NCBI GenBank assembly: GCA_022361295.1 | Contig: JAKSBD010000732.1 | Location: 1-52,480, forward strand | Source of the DNA: Bacteroidales bacterium | GTDB taxonomy: Bacteria; Bacteroidota; Bacteroidia; Bacteroidales; Marinilabiliaceae | Reading direction: 5' to 3' | Length of the DNA stretch: 52,480 bases | Shown: in pieces, positions 37,235-46,680 of the stretch | Numbering within the stretch: position 1 is the stretch's first letter | Layout of the letters: each line of letters opens with the position of its first letter | Notes under the pieces: model-generated | Database searches by the model: none | What the model was told of the DNA's origin: nothing | What the model saw: only the letters and a program-made list of their open reading frames with translations | Position numbers and translations under genes: made by a program

Positions 37235-39016
37235 CTATTTAAGAGATTCAATCATCTGATAAAATACGCCTTTTTGTAAGAGTAGTTCTTCAGGCTTGCC
37301 GGCTTCGGCTATTGTGCCATTTTTCATCACTACAATCATGTCGGCCAATTTAATGGTTGAAAGACGGTGACTGACAATAATGGCTGTTTTGTCCTCTGAA
37401 ATGTCCTTAAAATGCTCAATCAGGCTTGCTTCAGTAAATGCATCCAAAGAGCTTGTTGGTTCATCAAGAATGATAAGCTGAGCATCCGTATTATAAAATG
37501 AGCGAGCCAGGGCGGTTCGTTGCCATTCGCCGCGACTTAGCATTTGACTATCTTTGAATAAGGTCCCTAAAGTGGTGTCGTAGCCATCAGGAAGGTTGGA
37601 GAATATGTCGTGAAGTCCGGCACTTTTAGCTGCCGTTTGAATGGACGCTTTGGTGGAGTTTTTTTGTGTATTTCCGAAGTGAATATTGTCTTTAGCACTG
37701 ACATTGTAAAGCATAAAATCCTGAAAAATAACCGAGATATTCTGTGCTAGTTGCTCATTACTTATATCATTCCAATTACAATTGTCAACTAAAATTCTTC
37801 CGCTATTGGGCTTGTGTAAGCCACATAGCAGCTTTACCAAGGTGGTTTTTCCACTTCCGTTCTCACCAACCAGTGCAATGGTTTGGCCTTTGGGGATGCG
37901 CAGGTTAATGTTGTTTAATACCGGTTTACTGGAATTGGGATATTTGAAACAAAGATCTTTTATCTGAATATCATTGATGATTGGTTTTGGGAATGTTTCA
38001 GAAGCAGTTGCTTGTTTAATCTTAATATTTCTGAACTCAAAGAAATTTTTAAGGAACAGGTTGTCTTCATATAAGGATGACAAGTTACCAAGTAAACTTT
38101 GAAGGACTGAATAAGCCCTTTGAAGTGCCAGGAAATACATTGCCATTGTACCACTGGTAATGCCACCTTCAATGGTTTGTTTAATAACAAAGCCAATAAT
38201 TAAAAGCAGGATGATGGTAGCAAATAACTGTACTGTTACTTCATTAAGTGTTTTTGACTTAGAAAGGGACCATTGTTTATCGCGCAGGTCGTATTTAAAT
38301 CGTTCATACTCCAATTTAAACGTTTTACCAAGATTGAAAATGCGGAGCTCTTTAGCAAAATCTTTTGCGGTCAGCAGGCGGTTGTAATAATGAACACGCC
38401 GTTCATCTTCAGTGTGTTTTTTACGATACTGATATAGCCTGCGTGTATACAGAATTCTCAGGTAGAAAACAGGTGTGCTCGAAACAATTAATATGGGGAC
38501 CAGACTCCAATGTATATTTCCTAAAACAGCCAGTATTAAAATGATTGTCAGACTGTTTTGCATTAGCTGCAAAAGGCTGTAAAAAATACGTGCAGGACGA
38601 TAAGTGGAGTCACTTAAAGCCCTGTAAAAAATATTCTGGTAATTGGAATCTTCAAAATAACGATAGTCAATATTAATCGTTTTTTGGTGAATGATATTCT
38701 GTACAAAATCATTCACAAAATGACTCTGACGTTCTCGTACCAGGCTACTGACAGATCCGCTAACTGAATTAATAAGAAAAAATGCCGCTGTTAGGCCAAG
38801 TGTCGAATAAAGAAGTTGTAAATTTGATTCCGGATTAGTTATCTGTTGGCCTACAACATCAATTAATTGTTTTACTACATAAAGAAGCAGTAACGGCATG
38901 CAGCCTCTGACTACTGTTACCGCTGCATTGATATAGGTCCATTTGGGCGAACTTTTATATACAATTCGAATTGATTCAAGCAGGTGGTTTAGTGTGAGCT
39001 TATTGCCAGGTTTCAT
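37235..39016 (-). CDS. ABC exporter, fused permease and ATPase, no C39 peptidase domain
   Basis: TM domain, GENGSGKTT, IFQDF, LSRGEWQR, LDEPTSSLD, SHRLS. Confidence 0.92.
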   Translation of the reverse strand: MKPGNKLTLNHLLESIRIVYKSSPKWTYINAAVTVVRGCMPLLLLYVVKQLIDVVGQQITNPESNLQLLYSTLGLTAAFFLINSVSGSVSSLVRERQSHFVNDFVQNIIHQKTINIDYRYFEDSNYQNIFYRALSDSTYRPARIFYSLLQLMQNSLTIILILAVLGNIHWSLVPILIVSSTPVFYLRILYTRRLYQYRKKHTEDERRVHYYNRLLTAKDFAKELRIFNLGKTFKLEYERFKYDLRDKQWSLSKSKTLNEVTVQLFATIILLLIIGFVIKQTIEGGITSGTMAMYFLALQRAYSVLQSLLGNLSSLYEDNLFLKNFFEFRNIKIKQATASETFPKPIINDIQIKDLCFKYPNSSKPVLNNINLRIPKGQTIALVGENGSGKTTLVKLLCGLHKPNSGRILVDNCNWNDISNEQLAQNISVIFQDFMLYNVSAKDNIHFGNTQKNSTKASIQTAAKSAGLHDIFSNLPDGYDTTLGTLFKDSQMLSRGEWQRTALARSFYNTDAQLIILDEPTSSLDAFTEASLIEHFKDISEDKTAIIVSHRLSTIKLADMIVVMKNGTIAEAGKPEELLLQKGVFYQMIESLK

Positions 39017-39154: not shown

Positions 39155-39589
39155 TTAACGGAGTTTAGTTTTAATTCGCCCTGAATAAAAAAACAGGCGA
39201 CCGGTATAGAATGTCAGCTGTGGCATTAGTCTTTTAAATACCCGAAACCAACCTTTCTTGCAATTTTTAGTTTCATTATTGCGTCTTCGGCTGATAACAG
39301 TACCTAATACCTTCTCGTAAGGTACAGGATGATCCGGGTAGATAAGACCATCTCCTTTAAAATGGTATGCGGTATTACTGATCTTATAAACTCTGTGGGC
39401 GATCAGCTTTCTCTGACCAATAAATACACCAATATCGCCTTTTTGAGGCTTTACAGGATTAACCAATAAAACGTCGCCTGGTAGAAGGAGTGGAAACATA
39501 CTCATTCCAAAGGCTGGTACCTCAACCTGCTTTCCTTCCTGAAGAAAATGAATTAAGGTTGTTTGTATGTTTTTATTTTCCAAACTCAT
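39155..39589 (-). CDS. S24/S26 family peptidase (Ser/His type)
   Basis: G.SMFPLL.PGD, IAHRV, KGD...D motifs. Confidence 0.8.
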   Translation of the reverse strand: MSLENKNIQTTLIHFLQEGKQVEVPAFGMSMFPLLLPGDVLLVNPVKPQKGDIGVFIGQRKLIAHRVYKISNTAYHFKGDGLIYPDHPVPYEKVLGTVISRRRNNETKNCKKGWFRVFKRLMPQLTFYTGRLFFYSGRIKTKLR

Positions 39590-40478
39590 GTAAAATCATC
39601 TCAACAATATCTGTGTCTGGTTTAAATCCACATTCGTAAATGCCGCATGTTTCTGACAGGCTGATGACGGCATTAAGTCTGTTATGTACCTGATTGTTAT
39701 CGTATTGAAACTGCATGCAATTACTTAATAAGCCAAGTGCTCCTTTTAGAACAGGAAGTTTTTTAAAATAGTTATCAGGTGACTGCTTGATTAAGAATAG
39801 CTTGTGTAAAGCAACGCCTTTACTGCTATCCTGGTAATAAGGCATTGGAGTATTATAAGCTTTAAAGGAATCGCCATCAGGAAGAATGATTAAACGATCA
39901 TCGTTAATAATTGTAGCACCACATTTTTTCCATAAACCGGCCATAGTTGATTTACCGATTCCCGAAATAGCCGAGAAAAGATAGCCTTTGCCTTTATAAT
40001 CTATGGTTGAAGCATGGATAACAAAACCACCATAAAAGTGAACGATATATTGCAGTAATAAGATGCCAAGAGGATGGAAGAACGGATCTATAATAATTTC
40101 CGAAGTGCTGTTGGTAGTGATTTGTATATCAACTAAATTCTGATTGGAATCAACAAAGGCAATGGCCTCATTTACAATGGCGCTATCGTCAAAAACAACA
40201 TAAACACCTTCCAAAGCATCTTTTTTTATAATGCTCCATTTATAAGGTAAGTCCTCTTCAAACTTTTCAGAGCCCTTAAATATTTCTTTCCAGTCGCCTG
40301 GCAGTTTTTTATTGTTGGTGTGGATATTAAAAGTCCAGGTGGTCTTTGGGGTAGTTGGATTTTCCTGAAAAAGATGACTTCCTCCTTTACTGTCAAAAAC
40401 AAAATTGGGGGATAAGGAATTGACTTTAAACCTTATACCCCCAATTGAATAGTTTCTTGTATTTTCTGATTTGATCAT
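39573..40478 (-). CDS. HprK-related / ScmC-like P-loop protein (putative peptide kinase)
   Basis: IHAS, Walker A AISGIGKST, INDD, as in the HprK/PEPCK-type P-loop fold. Confidence 0.72.
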   Translation of the reverse strand: MIKSENTRNYSIGGIRFKVNSLSPNFVFDSKGGSHLFQENPTTPKTTWTFNIHTNNKKLPGDWKEIFKGSEKFEEDLPYKWSIIKKDALEGVYVVFDDSAIVNEAIAFVDSNQNLVDIQITTNSTSEIIIDPFFHPLGILLLQYIVHFYGGFVIHASTIDYKGKGYLFSAISGIGKSTMAGLWKKCGATIINDDRLIILPDGDSFKAYNTPMPYYQDSSKGVALHKLFLIKQSPDNYFKKLPVLKGALGLLSNCMQFQYDNNQVHNRLNAVISLSETCGIYECGFKPDTDIVEMILHEFGK

Positions 40479-40480
40479 TC

Positions 40481-40696
40481 TTACATATTCGAAAAATCTG
40501 GACTATCTCCACCAAAAGGATATTCGGCAGAAGATGGATTTTCAAACTTAGGAGCAGCTTCCGCTGGTGCTTCTGCTGCGCTAGGAGCAGGAAAAGGCGG
40601 TTCAATAGGTCCATCGCTAACCATAAACAGGCATGTGTCTAGGTCGTTAAAATGCTCCTCAATGTCAGGTTTGATATATTTTCGTTTAATCGTCAT
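40481..40696 (-). CDS. Putative RiPP precursor peptide
   Basis: 71 aa from ATG 40696 (73 from TTG 40702); KRKYIKPDI leader motif; fills the gap between RRE and kinase genes. Confidence 0.7.
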   Translation of the reverse strand: MTIKRKYIKPDIEEHFNDLDTCLFMVSDGPIEPPFPAPSAAEAPAEAAPKFENPSSAEYPFGGDSPDFSNM

Positions 40697-40714
40697 TCCC
40701 AAAATAGCTTCTCT

Positions 40715-41008
40715 TTATAGCTCTTTAATTATACCATTAGCAACAGCTTTCTTTAAGAATTGTTCCAAATCCTTTTCAGCTGTTTGTTTATCTACTTCGA
40801 ATTCATTCAAAATCAACTCAATAATTTCCCCTGTTGATTTCTCCGAATTCATGTTATTATATATAAAAGAACCAATTTCATTAAGCGAGAATACCTTCTC
40901 CATTTGCGCAACTGTTCCAACAAGAGGTACAACTACCGTTTCGTTTCCCACAGTTTTTTCAACAAAGCCAGTTTGCTTTATATACAGCTTACTTCTCACT
41001 AATTTCAT
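40715..41008 (-). CDS. PqqD family protein (stand-alone RiPP recognition element)
   Basis: 97 aa; VG.E.VVVP, FSLNEIGSFIY, EFEVD...AEKDL.QFL. Confidence 0.92.
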   Translation of the reverse strand: MKLVRSKLYIKQTGFVEKTVGNETVVVPLVGTVAQMEKVFSLNEIGSFIYNNMNSEKSTGEIIELILNEFEVDKQTAEKDLEQFLKKAVANGIIKEL

Positions 41009-42262: not shown

Positions 42263-45200
42263 TTGTATGTTTTGGGGGCACTAATTATAGTACCCCTAAT
42301 GTTATATTCTATATTATTGCTTCCTTCTGTTCAAACCTCTGTTGTTAGCTATATTACCAAAGAGCTCAGCGAAGATTTAGATACCGAAATTTCCATCAAA
42401 CGTGTTCATTTACGGCCATTTAAGACCTTGGTTTTGGATGAAGTAATAGTGTTTGATCAGCATGCTGATACGCTGTTAGCGATAAATCGAATTTCTGCTA
42501 ATATTGATTCTATCTATTTCAGAAGAAAAAGCTTGTATCTGAAGGATCTCCAAATTTCAGTTCCACAGATTAATGTGTCAAAAAAAGATTCGTTGTATAA
42601 CTTCTCGTTTCTTTTAGACGCGTTGCAACCGGGACAGAGAAAGAAAGATGATGACAATGCATGGAATATAAGTTTGAATAACCTTGGAATTGATGATGGA
42701 AAACTGAGTTACGATATCGATTCAGTGGGTACACATATGGAAGTCTCCAACCTCTTAATGCAAATCAATAATATTCATCAGGATAGTTTATGGCATTTTG
42801 GTTTGAGTGAGTTGTCATTTAAAAGTACAAATGGATTTAATGTTATAAAAGCAGAAGGGCAATTGAGTTTCAATAAGTCACATTTGACTTTTAGTCAGGG
42901 ACTGTTTGAAACACAAAATTCATCGTTGCAAATTGATTCCATCGATGTAGAGATGTTTCCTGATAAAGAAGGGATAGATAGGTTTGGGCAATTTTATTTA
43001 AATGTAGATCGCTCAATTGTTAATGATGATGACATCTCCTTTCTTACGGGAAAAACAATTAGGTTTCCTGAAATACGATTGTCGGGACTGGTAACCGGAA
43101 CAATCGACAATATAAGAGGTAGAGGTGTAAAGCTTCAGTTTGGGCCGCACTCCCAAATAAGCTCAAGTTTCGATATTGACGGACTACCTGATATAGATCA
43201 AACTTTTTTATACCTGAACGTGCGACATCTTAAAACGACGCCCGGTGATCTGGAGCGTCTCTTTTCAAGGGTGAAAGGACAAGCACTTCATTTGCCAAAT
43301 GCAATTCGAAACCTCGATCAAATTACCTATTCAGGTAGTTTTACCGGCTTCGTTACCGATATAGTGGCATATGGAGAGTTTAATACAGCTCTGGGTAAAA
43401 TTAATACAGATATCGGCTTGAAGATAGATGCCTCTGATAAACTGGTTTTTTCAGGTAACCTATCAACACAGCAATTTAACGTTGGCAAACTGGCAGGGGC
43501 TGAAGATCATATTGGTAACGTGTCAATGTCTGTCGCCATTAATGGTCACAGGCAATCGGCAGATAACTACAGTGCTTTTTTAAGTGGAGTGGTTGATACG
43601 ATTACAGTAAATAATTATGCATACAAAAACATCAGGCTTAACGGCTTGTTTGCCAATAATAAGTTTGATGGCGACTTTTTAATCGATGACCCAAACGGAC
43701 AGCTCGGCTTTAACGGGAAAATAGATTTATCAGGTGAAGTACCCAACTTTAGTTTTATAGCCCACCTGACCGAAATTAATCTTGATCAGCTGAATCTGTA
43801 TAAAAAACATACTAACGCTGTTTTAACTGCTGATATAGAAACTGAAATTTCAGGGAGTGAAATTAATGATATTGTCGGTTTTCTGAATGTTAGTAATCTA
43901 AACTATCAGTATGAAAAGGGTGAAGTCTCAATTGATTCGCTTTTGCTTATTTCTGTCAGGGAAGGAGAACGTAAACGAATTGTTCTTCAGTCAGATATTG
44001 CAGAAGGTGATTTGGTTGGAGTTTATAATTTCACCCACATTGGCAATATGCTGAAACAAAACCTTACCGACTTTCTCCCTGCATTAAAAACACAGGTCAA
44101 TATTAAGGAGAAGGATATAAAGGAAAATGATTTCACTTTTTCTTGTACGTTTAAAAGGATTTCAGACCTTGTTACCTTGCTTAATCCTGAAATTGAGGTT
44201 TCAGATAATGGGCTGTTGTTGGGAAATTATAATACAACAACCGGAGAAATTGATTTGGAGGCTGAGATTCAGTATCTGAATTATAAGGGAATCAGAGCAG
44301 TGCATCCCGAAATACATATATCTACAGATAATGATGATAAACTATCTGTAGTTTCGCGCTTAAAGGATTTAAATATCAATAACCTGGGTTCTTTTCAAAA
44401 TCTTAGTTTTCATCAAACAGCCTATAATGATACACTTAAGTTTAATGTATTCTGGAACAACTGGGATGAATATACCAATAGCGGATCTATTTTAACGACT
44501 ACTTCATTGAGATCGCGTGAAAATGGTTTATTTGCAACCACGCAACTATTACCTTCATATGTGATGGTTCATGATAGTCTTTGGGAAGTTCAGTCAACCA
44601 CCTTACATTATCACCCCGACGGCTTTTCAGTTAAAAACTTTCGGGTACATCGTGGAAATCAGGAGATTGGAATTAATGGTTTTGTGCACCGTCATGTAAA
44701 AGACGGTATGCGCGTTCATTTCCAGAATATTAATCTGTCCGATGTGATTGGTTACCAGGATATGAAGCAGGTTGAAGTGAAAGGCTTTCTTAATGGAACA
44801 CTTGATGTTCAACAGTTGTATACTTCGCCGGTGATAAGTGGAAATTTAAGTATAAACGATTTCAACTTTAACAATGATGCATTAGGTGATTTTGAAATTA
44901 TTGCCGATTATCTTCCTCAAGAGCACCAGATAGAGATTGAGTCCAATGTGACTAAAGGAAATAGTAAGCCTCTCGCGGGCGGCGGTCTAATTGACCTGGA
45001 GCAGCAACAGGTTAACTTAAATTATGACATTGACAGTCTTGAAATAGGCTTTCTGAATTTATACCTCAGTAAGGTTATGCAAAACCTGTCGGGTAATGCC
45101 AGTGGGAGATTATCTGTTGTTGGACCTTTGTCGGCGCCCGAGCTACTTGGGGCCCTAAATATTAATAAGGCCTTTTTTGATGTTAATCTTCTGCAAACCA

Positions 45201-46680
45201 CTTATTCAATAACAGACTCGGTTTTGTTTAAGCCAAACCTGATTGAATTTAAGGGAATACACCTTTCTGACCGAAATGGTAAGCAGGGTACTTTTGATGG
45301 TACAATCCAGCATCAGTCTTTCAGAAATATGCGGTATGATTTGCGATTAATCACTAATAATATGCTGGTTATGGATACTAAGTATACTGATAATCCGCTG
45401 TATTATGGTGAGGTTTATGCCGATGGAAATATGTCAGTAACCGGTACAACCAAGGATCTGGTGATAGACATTGGAGGTCGTACAATGGAGAATACGCAAT
45501 TTTTTATTCCTCTTACTGATGAAGAAAGTGCCGAAGAAAGCAGTTTTATTCGTTTTATTAATACCTCTAAAGAAGAAGGTGAAGACGGTGAGGATGTTAT
45601 GCAATCGGACGAGTATGAGATTGACTTAACCGGTATGACTGTGAGTATGGATCTGGATATAACGCCCGATGCCCGATGCCAGGTTATTTTTGATTCGAAA
45701 GTGGGTGACATTTTAAAGGGACAGGGAAATGGTAATCTGCAAATACAGATGGATAAAGAAGGTGGTATCGTGTTCTTCGGAGATTTTGATTTTGAAGATG
45801 GAGACTATATGTTTACCCTTCAAAATGTATTGAATAAGAAATTTGTGATTAACAGAGGTTCGTCCATACATTGGGATGGAAACCCATATGATGCCATTAT
45901 TGACCTGAATGCAACTTATAACCTGAAAACGAGCTTGCTTGATCTGACAGGTGATTTTTCAGAAGAAGCACAGAGAGAATACGGGCGAAGAATACCGGTG
46001 CATTGTAATATGTTATTAACAGATCGCCTGACACGACCTAATGTGAAGTTTGAAATAAAGACGCCGTCAACCCAGGATAATAACCAAAACATATTGATTC
46101 GTACATCAATACCGAAGAGGAGACCAATCGCCAGGTATTGTCACTGTTGGTGCTTAATAAATTCTATACTCAGGAAACAAGTACTGCCAATAGCGGTGTA
46201 ACATCAGGTAACAATGCCGCACTGGTTACCACTACCGAGATGTTATCCAATCAATTGAGTCATTGGTTGTCGCAAATCAGTCGCGATGTTGATATTGGTG
46301 TGAGTTACCGACCGGCCAGTGAGTTGAGTGATGATGAGGTTGAAGTGGCACTCTCGACACAAATGTTTAATAATCGCGTGGTTGTCAACGGCAACGTAGG
46401 ATACGGAAGGGATCAAACACGTCCGAGTAACCTTATTGGTGATTTTGACGTTGAGGTTAAACTGAATAACTCAGGAAGTATCAGGGCCAAAGCATATACA
46501 CGCACCAACAATGACCTTGTGTATTCAACCAATACATCGCCTACCACACAGGGTGTAGGTGTTTCGTTTAAAGAGGAATTTGATACTTTAGAAGAATTAA
46601 TGCACAAGTATTGGTTAAAGATTTCAGGCAAAAACAAAGACAAAGAAAAGAAGAGTACTTCCAAAGAGACTAAAGAATAA
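42263..46680 (+). pseudogene. tamB: TamB (translocation/assembly module) gene split by a -1 frameshift near 46090; may be a sequencing error
   Basis: 42263..46201 and 46138..46680 join into one ~1470-aa TamB-like protein; the second frame reads IDSYINTEEETNRQVLSLLVLNKF from 46093. Confidence 0.8.

What the first reader, a model, noticed from the sequence alone, without database searches (positions are those of the whole stretch)
40481..40702. Precursor has a lasso-like leader but a long acidic Pro/Ala/Ser-rich core
Seen: MTIKRKYIKPDIEEHFNDLDTCLFMV followed by SDGPIEPPFPAPSAAEAPAEAAPKFENPSSAEYPFGGDSPDFSNM (45 aa, 10 Pro, 6 Ser, internal AAEAP/AEAAP repeat). Known: YxxPxL is the RRE-binding motif of lasso leaders, and lasso cores are about 15-25 aa. 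Inference: cleavage near LFMV/S, with serines in PSS, DSP and FSNM as modification sites; the YPFGG..P.F tail may be the functional part.
Basis: partly seen in the sequence, partly recalled or inferred. Interest (0 to 1): 0.7.

Follow-up and report, generated by a model that had tools for sequence, protein, structure and literature searches.

The report
Bacteroidota phosphopeptide precursor, not a lasso
This small gene, kept across a family of marine and sediment bacteria, encodes a peptide that is likely phosphorylated at one fixed serine, likely trimmed and exported by its neighbouring genes in a pathway so far reported only from Bacillus-like bacteria, and many of its sister peptides are encoded directly behind large secreted surface proteins, which hints at a job on the cell surface.

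Summary
The ORF is real: 71 aa (minus strand, ATG 40696), under purifying selection, and sitting between RRE and kinase genes in 23 of 25 Marinilabiliaceae-level loci. It is not a lasso precursor: no B2 protease was found and no cyclase is linked. The operon (RRE, precursor, HprK-like kinase, Ser-His-Asp SipW-type peptidase, ABC exporter) matches the LPP pathway (Popov 2026, PMC13381572), which that paper calls restricted to Bacillota. The leader differs: YxxPxIExxxxDxxIxLxxx[S/T]. The PFGG..P.Y tail is conserved; the AAEAP repeat is not (1 of 23). This genome has four more peptides with this leader. Of 44 stand-alone copies in relatives, 26 (18 of them one orthologous locus) lie just behind type IX-secreted proteins sharing an unnamed tail domain, a pairing that recurs in about ten families. 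Nothing here is shown biochemically, and binding could not be modelled. The scan reported similar systems before on other DNA. Verdict: new variant of a known kind.

The parts
40481..40696 (-). Precursor peptide gene, 71 aa from ATG (73 aa from the TTG at 40702); no Pfam or NCBIfam match
   Evidence: conserved in place in 23 of 27 kinase loci
40616..40678 (-). Leader motif Y7-x-x-P10-x-I12...D18...L23...S27; inferred RRE-binding and peptidase-presentation segment
   Evidence: Y7, P10, D18 in 23 of 23, L23 in 22 of 23; D at +11 in 178 of 178 and S/T at +20 in 177 of 178 homologues
40616..40618 (-). Ser27 codon, predicted (poly)phosphorylation site
   Evidence: S 19, T 4 of 23 position-found orthologues; S/T in 44 of 44 stand-alone copies and 25 of 25 copies from 20 families; analogy to Ser3 of LppA and BsfA
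40550..40579 (-). AAEAP/AEAAP repeat inside the variable Pro/Ala/acidic middle; not conserved
   Evidence: 1 of 23 orthologues; pN/pS 0.33-0.88 for this middle part
40493..40519 (-). Conserved tail P60-F-G-G-D-S-P-D-F68, typical of the operon-linked subtype
   Evidence: (P/A)(F/M)G..P.(Y/F/W) in 23 of 23 operon copies, in 1 of 26 cargo-linked copies; tail pN/pS 0.03-0.32
40715..41008 (-). Discrete RRE (PqqD family), the only one found in the genome; invariant N43, D80, F84
   Evidence: PF05402 E 1.5e-15; one match in G000; aligns to LppB 9x8z
39573..40478 (-). HprK/PEPCK-fold kinase, 301 aa; H155, G173-x-G175-K176-S177, D193-D194; starts 2 nt after the precursor stop
   Evidence: TIGR04355 E 1e-6, below cut-off; model pLDDT 88.8, Foldseek hits are PEPCK and HPr kinases
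39155..39589 (-). S24/S26 SipW-type peptidase, 144 aa; invariant S30, H65, D80, D86; overlaps the kinase by 17 nt
   Evidence: TIGR02228 E 4.7e-10, below cut-off; single copy in 24 of 24 family genomes
37235..39016 (-). MsbA-like ABC exporter, 593 aa, 138 nt behind the peptidase; fused to the peptidase in G033
   Evidence: fusion

Best explanation
The gene encodes a conserved 71-residue peptide that is likely the precursor of a linear phosphorylated product: the neighbouring RRE likely binds its YxxP leader, the kinase likely phosphorylates Ser27, the SipW-type peptidase likely cuts the leader just before that serine, and the ABC transporter likely exports the acidic 45-47-residue core. This is the LPP logic of Bacillota with a leader two residues longer. 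The cut is most likely F24|M25 (Ser at +3 as in LppA and BsfA) or M25|V26 (L23 in the place of LppA F-3); V26|S27 is not excluded. One RRE, kinase and peptidase per genome would serve one to seven scattered precursors that share the leader. An unlinked NTP_transf_5 enzyme may then add a sugar or sugar-phosphate to the phosphate. The product probably works at the cell envelope rather than as an antibiotic. Shown: ORF, selection, operon, catalytic residues, leader conservation, co-occurrence, gene pairing. Inferred: binding, phosphorylation, cleavage site, export, further decoration, function.
For: Gene set equals the LPP core except for the linked nucleotidyltransferase (against PMC13381572 results). 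Peptidase keeps S30/H65/D86, matching LppS S29/H68/D93 (paper, compared by eye). RRE keeps N43/D80/F84, matching LppB N33/D70/F74. Kinase keeps the BsfK motif with the same spacing, His to Lys 21 and Lys to Asp 17, with Ala170 for the first Gly (PMC10368454 passage). S/T exactly 20 residues after the Tyr in 23 of 23 position-found orthologues and 177 of 178 profile hits, against 19% S+T in the cores; the distance is 18 in LppA and 19 in BsfA, both phosphorylated at Ser3. Peptide and this RRE subfamily co-occur: order sample, 21 genomes with both, 4 peptide only, 3 RRE only, 223 neither of 251; class sample, 8 of 9 peptide genomes have the RRE and all 8 RRE genomes have the peptide, of 301. Peptidase fused to the exporter, with a nucleotidyltransferase next to it, in G033. 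The nucleotidyltransferase is found in 22 of 24 family genomes, and 7 of 24 fetched loci place it beside glycosyltransferases.
Against: No biochemistry and no expression data. The LPP consensus (HQ..FET) is not present, and LppK did not accept S3T while Thr is common here (75 of 178), so the kinase must differ. Family hits for kinase and peptidase are below curated cut-offs. In five family genomes the peptidase and exporter were not within 1.5 kb of the kinase, though the peptidase is elsewhere. In this genome the nucleotidyltransferase is unlinked, between cstA and a mevalonate operon. The RRE E-value cut-offs (1e-15, 1e-18) were set after seeing the lists, and related genomes are not independent, so the Fisher p of 1e-23 overstates. 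Profile-found hits are partly selected for the S/T column. No outer-membrane channel is encoded in the operon.
Confidence: 0.8

Rival explanations
1. Surface-tag model (an extension of the best explanation): the matured phosphopeptide is a dedicated partner of type IX-secreted proteins with an unnamed 370-residue GWNLxGNPY tail domain. It would bind or be joined to that domain and tie the protein to a surface glycan through its phospho-Ser.
For: 26 of 44 stand-alone copies lie 13-55 nt behind such a gene on the same strand; 33 of 36 aligned upstream proteins hit TIGR04183 and the last 75 residues of the model match solved T9SS CTDs (8gl8_D, TMt 0.79). With a profile built only from family f1 and G033, the pairing recurs in 8 of 25 loci from 22 genomes, 7 families, and in f35 and f19, including four tandem cargo-peptide pairs ahead of the operon on G200:C25. 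T9SS CTD matches number 81 among about 4,300 long ORFs in this genome.
Against: 18 of the 26 are one orthologous locus beside queF/rlmD. The domain occurs in 173 of 301 class genomes, 9 of which have the peptide, and 5 of 5 other domain genes of this genome with readable downstream DNA have no peptide. The window's own copy sits in the operon, not behind a cargo gene. The tail differs by family (NPFE, LNPLRWWR, SPW).
Confidence: 0.25
2. Secreted signal or antimicrobial: the processed peptides diffuse away as signals or toxins, and their place behind secreted-protein genes only gives shared expression.
For: Hypervariable cores and multiple copies are typical of RiPPs (own knowledge); PMC13381572 reads the patchy spread of LPPs as conflict-like. 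One subfamily lies near a TonB-dependent receptor gene.
Against: Acidic, Pro-rich core (pI about 4); the operon is single-copy and fixed beside tsaD in 22 of the 23 loci that carry the peptide, with kinase and peptidase in 24 of 24 family genomes, which looks like a housekeeping trait; no immunity or regulator gene is in the operon.
Confidence: 0.15
3. Lasso peptide with a cyclase supplied from elsewhere in the genome.
For: YxxP motif and PqqD-type RRE; weak hits of 3 of 45 family peptides to NF033524 paeninodin precursors (best E 0.055); PF00733 matches exist in the genome.
Against: No PF13471 match (genome 96% complete). Of seven PF00733 matches, five lie in four ORFs that begin MCG like glutamine amidotransferases, one looks like QueC and one is a contig-edge fragment; none is in the window. 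No Thr before the likely cut, no invariant Asp/Glu at ring distance, core 27-51 aa from the S/T.
Confidence: 0.03
4. Spurious or decaying ORF with a chance motif.
For: No family match; low-complexity middle; no expression data.
Against: Conserved position, low pN/pS, 585 clusters at 50% identity with E up to 0.001.
Confidence: 0.01

Closest known systems
LPP (linear polyphosphorylated peptide) clusters of Bacillota, LppA/K/B/S/D/N of Paenibacillus alginolyticus (PMC13381572)
   Same: Discrete RRE, HprK-like kinase, SipW-type Ser-His-Asp leader peptidase, MsbA-like exporter, no cyclase, YxxP leader followed at fixed distance by a Ser, low-complexity variable core.
   Different: Phylum Bacteroidota; leader YxxPxIExxxxDxxIxLxxx[S/T] (Tyr to Ser 20, not 18; no HQ or FET); Thr allowed; conserved aromatic tail; nucleotidyltransferase unlinked here; precursors scattered, many behind T9SS cargo genes. 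The paper's Supplementary Data lists five Bacteroidota peptidase-RRE rows outside its main cluster, each with the precursor not determined.
Phosphorylated lasso peptides: paeninodin, pseudomycoidin, Bsf (PMC8498205 passages, PMC10368454 passages)
   Same: YxxP-type leader, RRE, HprK-like kinase with the same catalytic motif; BsfK phosphorylates Ser3; pseudomycoidin's nucleotidyltransferase adds hexose to the phosphate.
   Different: They need the B2 cysteine protease and the macrolactam cyclase, neither linked here; paeninodin and pseudomycoidin are modified at a C-terminal Ser, which this family lacks.
HprK-related cassettes in NCBIfam (TIGR04355, TIGR04352, SynChlorMet ScmC TIGR04249)
   Same: Weak matches of the kinase, and of the RRE to ScmD.
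   Different: All far below cut-off; no radical SAM enzyme in this operon.

Membership tests
Lasso peptides | Macrolactam cyclase (asparagine synthetase-like) with the cluster | tested here: not met
   None in the window; the seven genome PF00733 matches look like AsnB, QueC or a fragment
Lasso peptides | Transglutaminase-like B2 leader protease | tested here: not met
   No PF13471 match in G000, 96% complete
Lasso peptides | Thr(-2) and Asp/Glu at core position 7-9, short core | tested here: not met
   No conserved Thr near the cut, no invariant acid at ring distance; 27-51 aa from the S/T to the end
Lasso peptides | [Y/W]xxPx[L/V/I/A/F/Y] leader and discrete RRE | tested here: met
   YIKPDI
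LPP (Bacillota) | SipW-type peptidase with Ser-His-Asp triad | tested here: met
   S30, H65, D86 invariant in 12 of 12; TIGR02228 E 4.7e-10, below cut-off
LPP (Bacillota) | Discrete RRE with the Asn and Asp that grip YxxP | tested here: met
   N43, D80 invariant in 17 of 17, aligned to LppB N33, D70
LPP (Bacillota) | HprK-like kinase and MsbA-like exporter in the cluster, no cyclase | tested here: met
LPP (Bacillota) | NTP transferase in the cluster | tested here: inconclusive
   One PF14907 gene, on another contig; linked in G033
LPP (Bacillota) | Leader consensus YxxPxVLxHQxIxFETxxS | tested here: not met
   Only YxxP, a following hydrophobic residue and the final S/T are shared; spacing 20 against 18
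LPP (Bacillota) | Polyphosphorylation of core Ser3 and RRE-dependent cleavage | not testable with these tools
   Needs expression and mass spectrometry
LPP (Bacillota) | RRE falls in the monophyletic LPP clade | not tested
   No tree with the Bacillota RRE set was built; the paper lists Bacteroidota RREs under 'RRE others'

The most novel reading that the evidence does not exclude
Bacteroidota use an LPP-like line to make phosphopeptide tags that partner a class of type IX-secreted surface proteins: the tag binds or is joined to their unnamed tail domain and, through a phospho-sugar on its first Ser/Thr, ties them to surface polysaccharide. That would be a RiPP acting as a structural adaptor of a protein secretion system, and would give the first function for LPP-type peptides.
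Probability: 0.2. Interest if true: 0.85.

Novelty: new variant of a known kind. Interest (0 to 1): 0.52.

Why it matters
The one paper on LPPs calls them restricted to Bacillota and leaves the final product and function open. This locus gives a Gram-negative branch with an exact, testable leader rule, a predicted single modification site and expected masses, in a genus with cultured strains. The recurring pairing with type IX-secreted proteins, and the nucleotidyltransferase's frequent place among glycosyltransferases, point to a cell-surface role that knockouts could test. It also names several hundred small 'hypothetical' proteins.

Tried and rejected
Pfam and NCBIfam: no match for the precursor; PDB sequence search gave only chance hits for precursor and peptidase. 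Expression: no RNA holder listed, which is no evidence either way. Promoter and terminator scan: counts equal to shuffles (17 vs 17.7; 3 vs 3.6), and it does not cover Bacteroidota promoters. ESM Atlas: not answered. Fold search of the tail domain: only its last 75 residues matched (T9SS CTDs); the rest had no clear PDB match. Cluster look-up of 10 distant homologues gave no names. A plain regex for K.Y..P.I gave 18 ORFs, mostly noise, and missed the copies without ATG; the leader profile gave five hits at E up to 0.004 and then a gap to 0.9. Rejected: lasso cyclisation, tail serines as sites, the AAEAP repeat as functional, the tail domain as peptide-dependent (173 of 301 genomes; this tally includes the unpublished genome G128 as one count, and no other claim rests on it). 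Literature: seven full-text searches found the LPP paper but, in the listings shown, no description of this Bacteroidota precursor family or its T9SS pairing; keyword look-ups in PMC10352776 and PMC12710340 found nothing relevant. The library lacks most subscription journals.

Full report
Observation. The stretch 40481-40702 is a minus-strand ORF. The quoted sequence is exact from the ATG at 40696 (71 aa). The 45 residues after LFMV hold 10 Pro and 6 Ser. Close relatives of the neighbouring kinase are titled Carboxylicivirga, so the window is from that genus or very near it, family Marinilabiliaceae.

Anatomy. On the minus strand, behind tsaD: a PqqD-family RRE (40715-41008, PF05402 E 1.5e-15), the small ORF 18 nt later, a 301-aa kinase 2 nt after its stop, a 144-aa S24/S26 peptidase overlapping the kinase by 17 nt, and a 593-aa MsbA-like ABC exporter 138 nt further. 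The genome (96% complete) gave one PqqD match, one PF14907 nucleotidyltransferase on another contig, no PF13471 lasso protease, and seven PF00733 matches, none in the window; five lie in four ORFs beginning MCG, one looks like QueC and one is a contig-edge fragment.

Conservation. The kinase and the peptidase were each found in 24 of 24 family genomes. In 23 of 27 kinase loci examined (23 of the 25 from this family) an orthologous ORF lies between RRE and kinase; three of the four misses have profile hits elsewhere in the genome and G029 has none. Y7, P10, D18, P33, P49 and P66 are invariant. Against six orthologues, uncorrected pN/pS is 0.11-0.37 in the leader, 0.03-0.32 in the tail, 0.33-0.88 in the middle. 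A profile search of 1.84 billion representatives gave 585 clusters at E up to 0.001. Among 179 retrieved proteins, 178 carry the YxxP motif; of these, Asp stands 11 residues after the Tyr in 178 and Ser or Thr 20 residues after it in 177, against 19% S+T in the cores. Those hits are profile-selected, but the 23 orthologues found by position give the same result, 19 Ser and 4 Thr.

Closest known system. Popov et al. 2026 (PMC13381572; I read the abstract, introduction, results sections 6-8, the start of 9, sections 10-12, and searched the supplements by keyword) describe LPPs: SipW-type peptidase, discrete RRE, HprK-like kinase, NTP transferase and MsbA-like transporter, leader YxxPxVLxHQxIxFETxxS, cleavage after T-1, polyphosphorylation of Ser3, final product and function unknown, 'restricted to the Bacillota'. 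Their dataset has five Bacteroidota peptidase-RRE rows in side clusters with no precursor determined. Here the catalytic and binding residues line up: peptidase S30/H65/D86 with LppS S29/H68/D93 (by eye); RRE N43/D80/F84 with LppB N33/D70/F74; kinase H155, G173, G175, K176, S177, D193, D194 with the BsfK motif at identical spacing (PMC10368454, passages only). The kinase model (pLDDT 88.8) finds PEPCK and HPr kinases. Tyr-to-phosphoSer distance is 18 in LppA and 19 in BsfA; the fixed S/T here is at 20. I infer that Ser27 is the kinase target and that the cut lies at F24|M25 or M25|V26. It works like an LPP; I file it as a variant.

Scattered precursors. The leader profile finds four more ORFs in this genome (C587, C544, C343, C414, the last cut by a contig end) and then nothing until E 0.9. 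All 24 family genomes have one to five copies. Peptide and RRE subfamily travel together: in 251 order-level genomes 21 have both, 4 only the peptide, 3 only the RRE at E below 1e-15; in 301 class-level genomes 9 have the peptide and 8 of them the RRE at E below 1e-18, with no RRE at that level elsewhere. The cut-offs were chosen after seeing the lists and kin are not independent. Weaker RRE hits include clusters with the same enzymes and no peptide of this family (G146, G263).

The T9SS pairing. I fetched 44 of the 46 stand-alone places. In 26 the peptide lies 13-55 nt (to seven codons before the Tyr) behind a same-strand gene whose product ends in a shared region of about 370 aa (GWNLxGNPY...LKS...DE..IAF) plus a T9SS C-terminal domain. 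Eighteen of these are one orthologous locus beside queF/rlmD. Of 36 aligned upstream proteins 33 hit TIGR04183; the model is all-beta (pLDDT 88) and only its last 75 residues match solved structures, T9SS CTDs. An independent look at 25 loci from 22 genomes in 20 families, scored with a domain profile built from family f1 and G033 only: 9 behind the RRE, 1 more ahead of the kinase, 8 behind a domain gene (7 families), 1 behind a CTD-only stretch, 6 elsewhere; in 2 of the RRE loci the domain gene stands just ahead of the RRE. G200:C25 has four cargo-peptide pairs in a row and then peptide, RRE, kinase, peptidase. Against a required partnership: the domain is in 173 of 301 class genomes, and five other domain genes of this genome with readable downstream DNA have no peptide. 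The window's copy is the operon subtype, with a (P/A)(F/M)G..P.(Y/F/W) tail in 23 of 23, while 25 of 26 cargo-linked copies end in an NPF-like motif. Physical binding was not tested.

Nucleotidyltransferase. It is found in 22 of 24 family genomes. Of 24 loci fetched, 7 place it beside glycosyltransferases and 2 beside a NusG-family gene (neighbours of six loci confirmed by Pfam, three by likeness to those), and 1 (G033) next to the exporter. This fits phosphoglycosylation as in pseudomycoidin (PMC8498205, passages) and the capsule link of LPPs, but its tie to this peptide is inferred.

Mechanism and odds. RRE binds the leader, kinase phosphorylates Ser27, peptidase cuts, ABC transporter moves the core to the periplasm, perhaps after sugar is added to the phosphate: 0.8 for the LPP-like maturation. 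For the function, a surface tag that partners T9SS cargo 0.25, diffusible signal or toxin 0.15, the rest some other envelope role. Lasso 0.03, artefact 0.01.

Novelty. New variant of a known kind. Seven literature searches showed no description of this precursor family. Earlier notes of this scan describe similar systems on other DNA; I reached the LPP paper and the T9SS pairing before reading them, and they are not independent evidence. Interest 0.52.

Noticed in passing
window 42263-46680 (+): The TamB-like gene is split into overlapping frames near 46138-46201; three relatives read through this point in one frame. Probably an assembly error.
   Followed up: partly
L074:1716-3956 (+), G033:C641: S26 peptidase fused to the ABC exporter (746 aa), with NTP_transf_5 facing it: a peptidase-containing exporter that uses a signal-peptidase domain. 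A similar fusion is in G562 and in the LPP paper's Paludibacter row.
   Followed up: partly
L146, L147, L150, L151 (family f35): Peptides with the same leader end in a basic, Trp-rich tail (LNPLRWWR-like), which could sit in a membrane surface.
   Followed up: no
L203 (G146), L204 (G263): Kinase, S26 peptidase, PqqD and a likely nucleotidyltransferase cluster without a peptide of this family nearby; probably another leader family.
   Followed up: partly
L205:686-874 (-), G373:C84: A 62-aa YxxP peptide with three Cys and a final Ser lies among RRE, S26 peptidase and exporter genes, behind genes that look like polysaccharide export by their N-termini.
   Followed up: no
L022, L023, L079: In three family genomes the operon or the operon-type peptide faces a GWNLxGNPY-domain T9SS gene tail to tail.
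   Followed up: partly
L088, L090, L103, L105, L108: A Gly/Asn-rich subfamily of the peptide (GNGNGQGGGWG) lies between divergent and convergent genes, in four of five cases facing a TonB-dependent receptor gene.
   Followed up: no
L070:3-710 and G000:C686 end: The end of contig C686 and the start of C587 encode 90% identical copies of the tail domain, suggesting tandem paralogues broken by the assembly.
   Followed up: partly
alignment A6: The roughly 370-aa GWNLxGNPY region has no Pfam model and no clear PDB match, yet occurs in 173 of 301 Bacteroidia genomes.
   Followed up: partly
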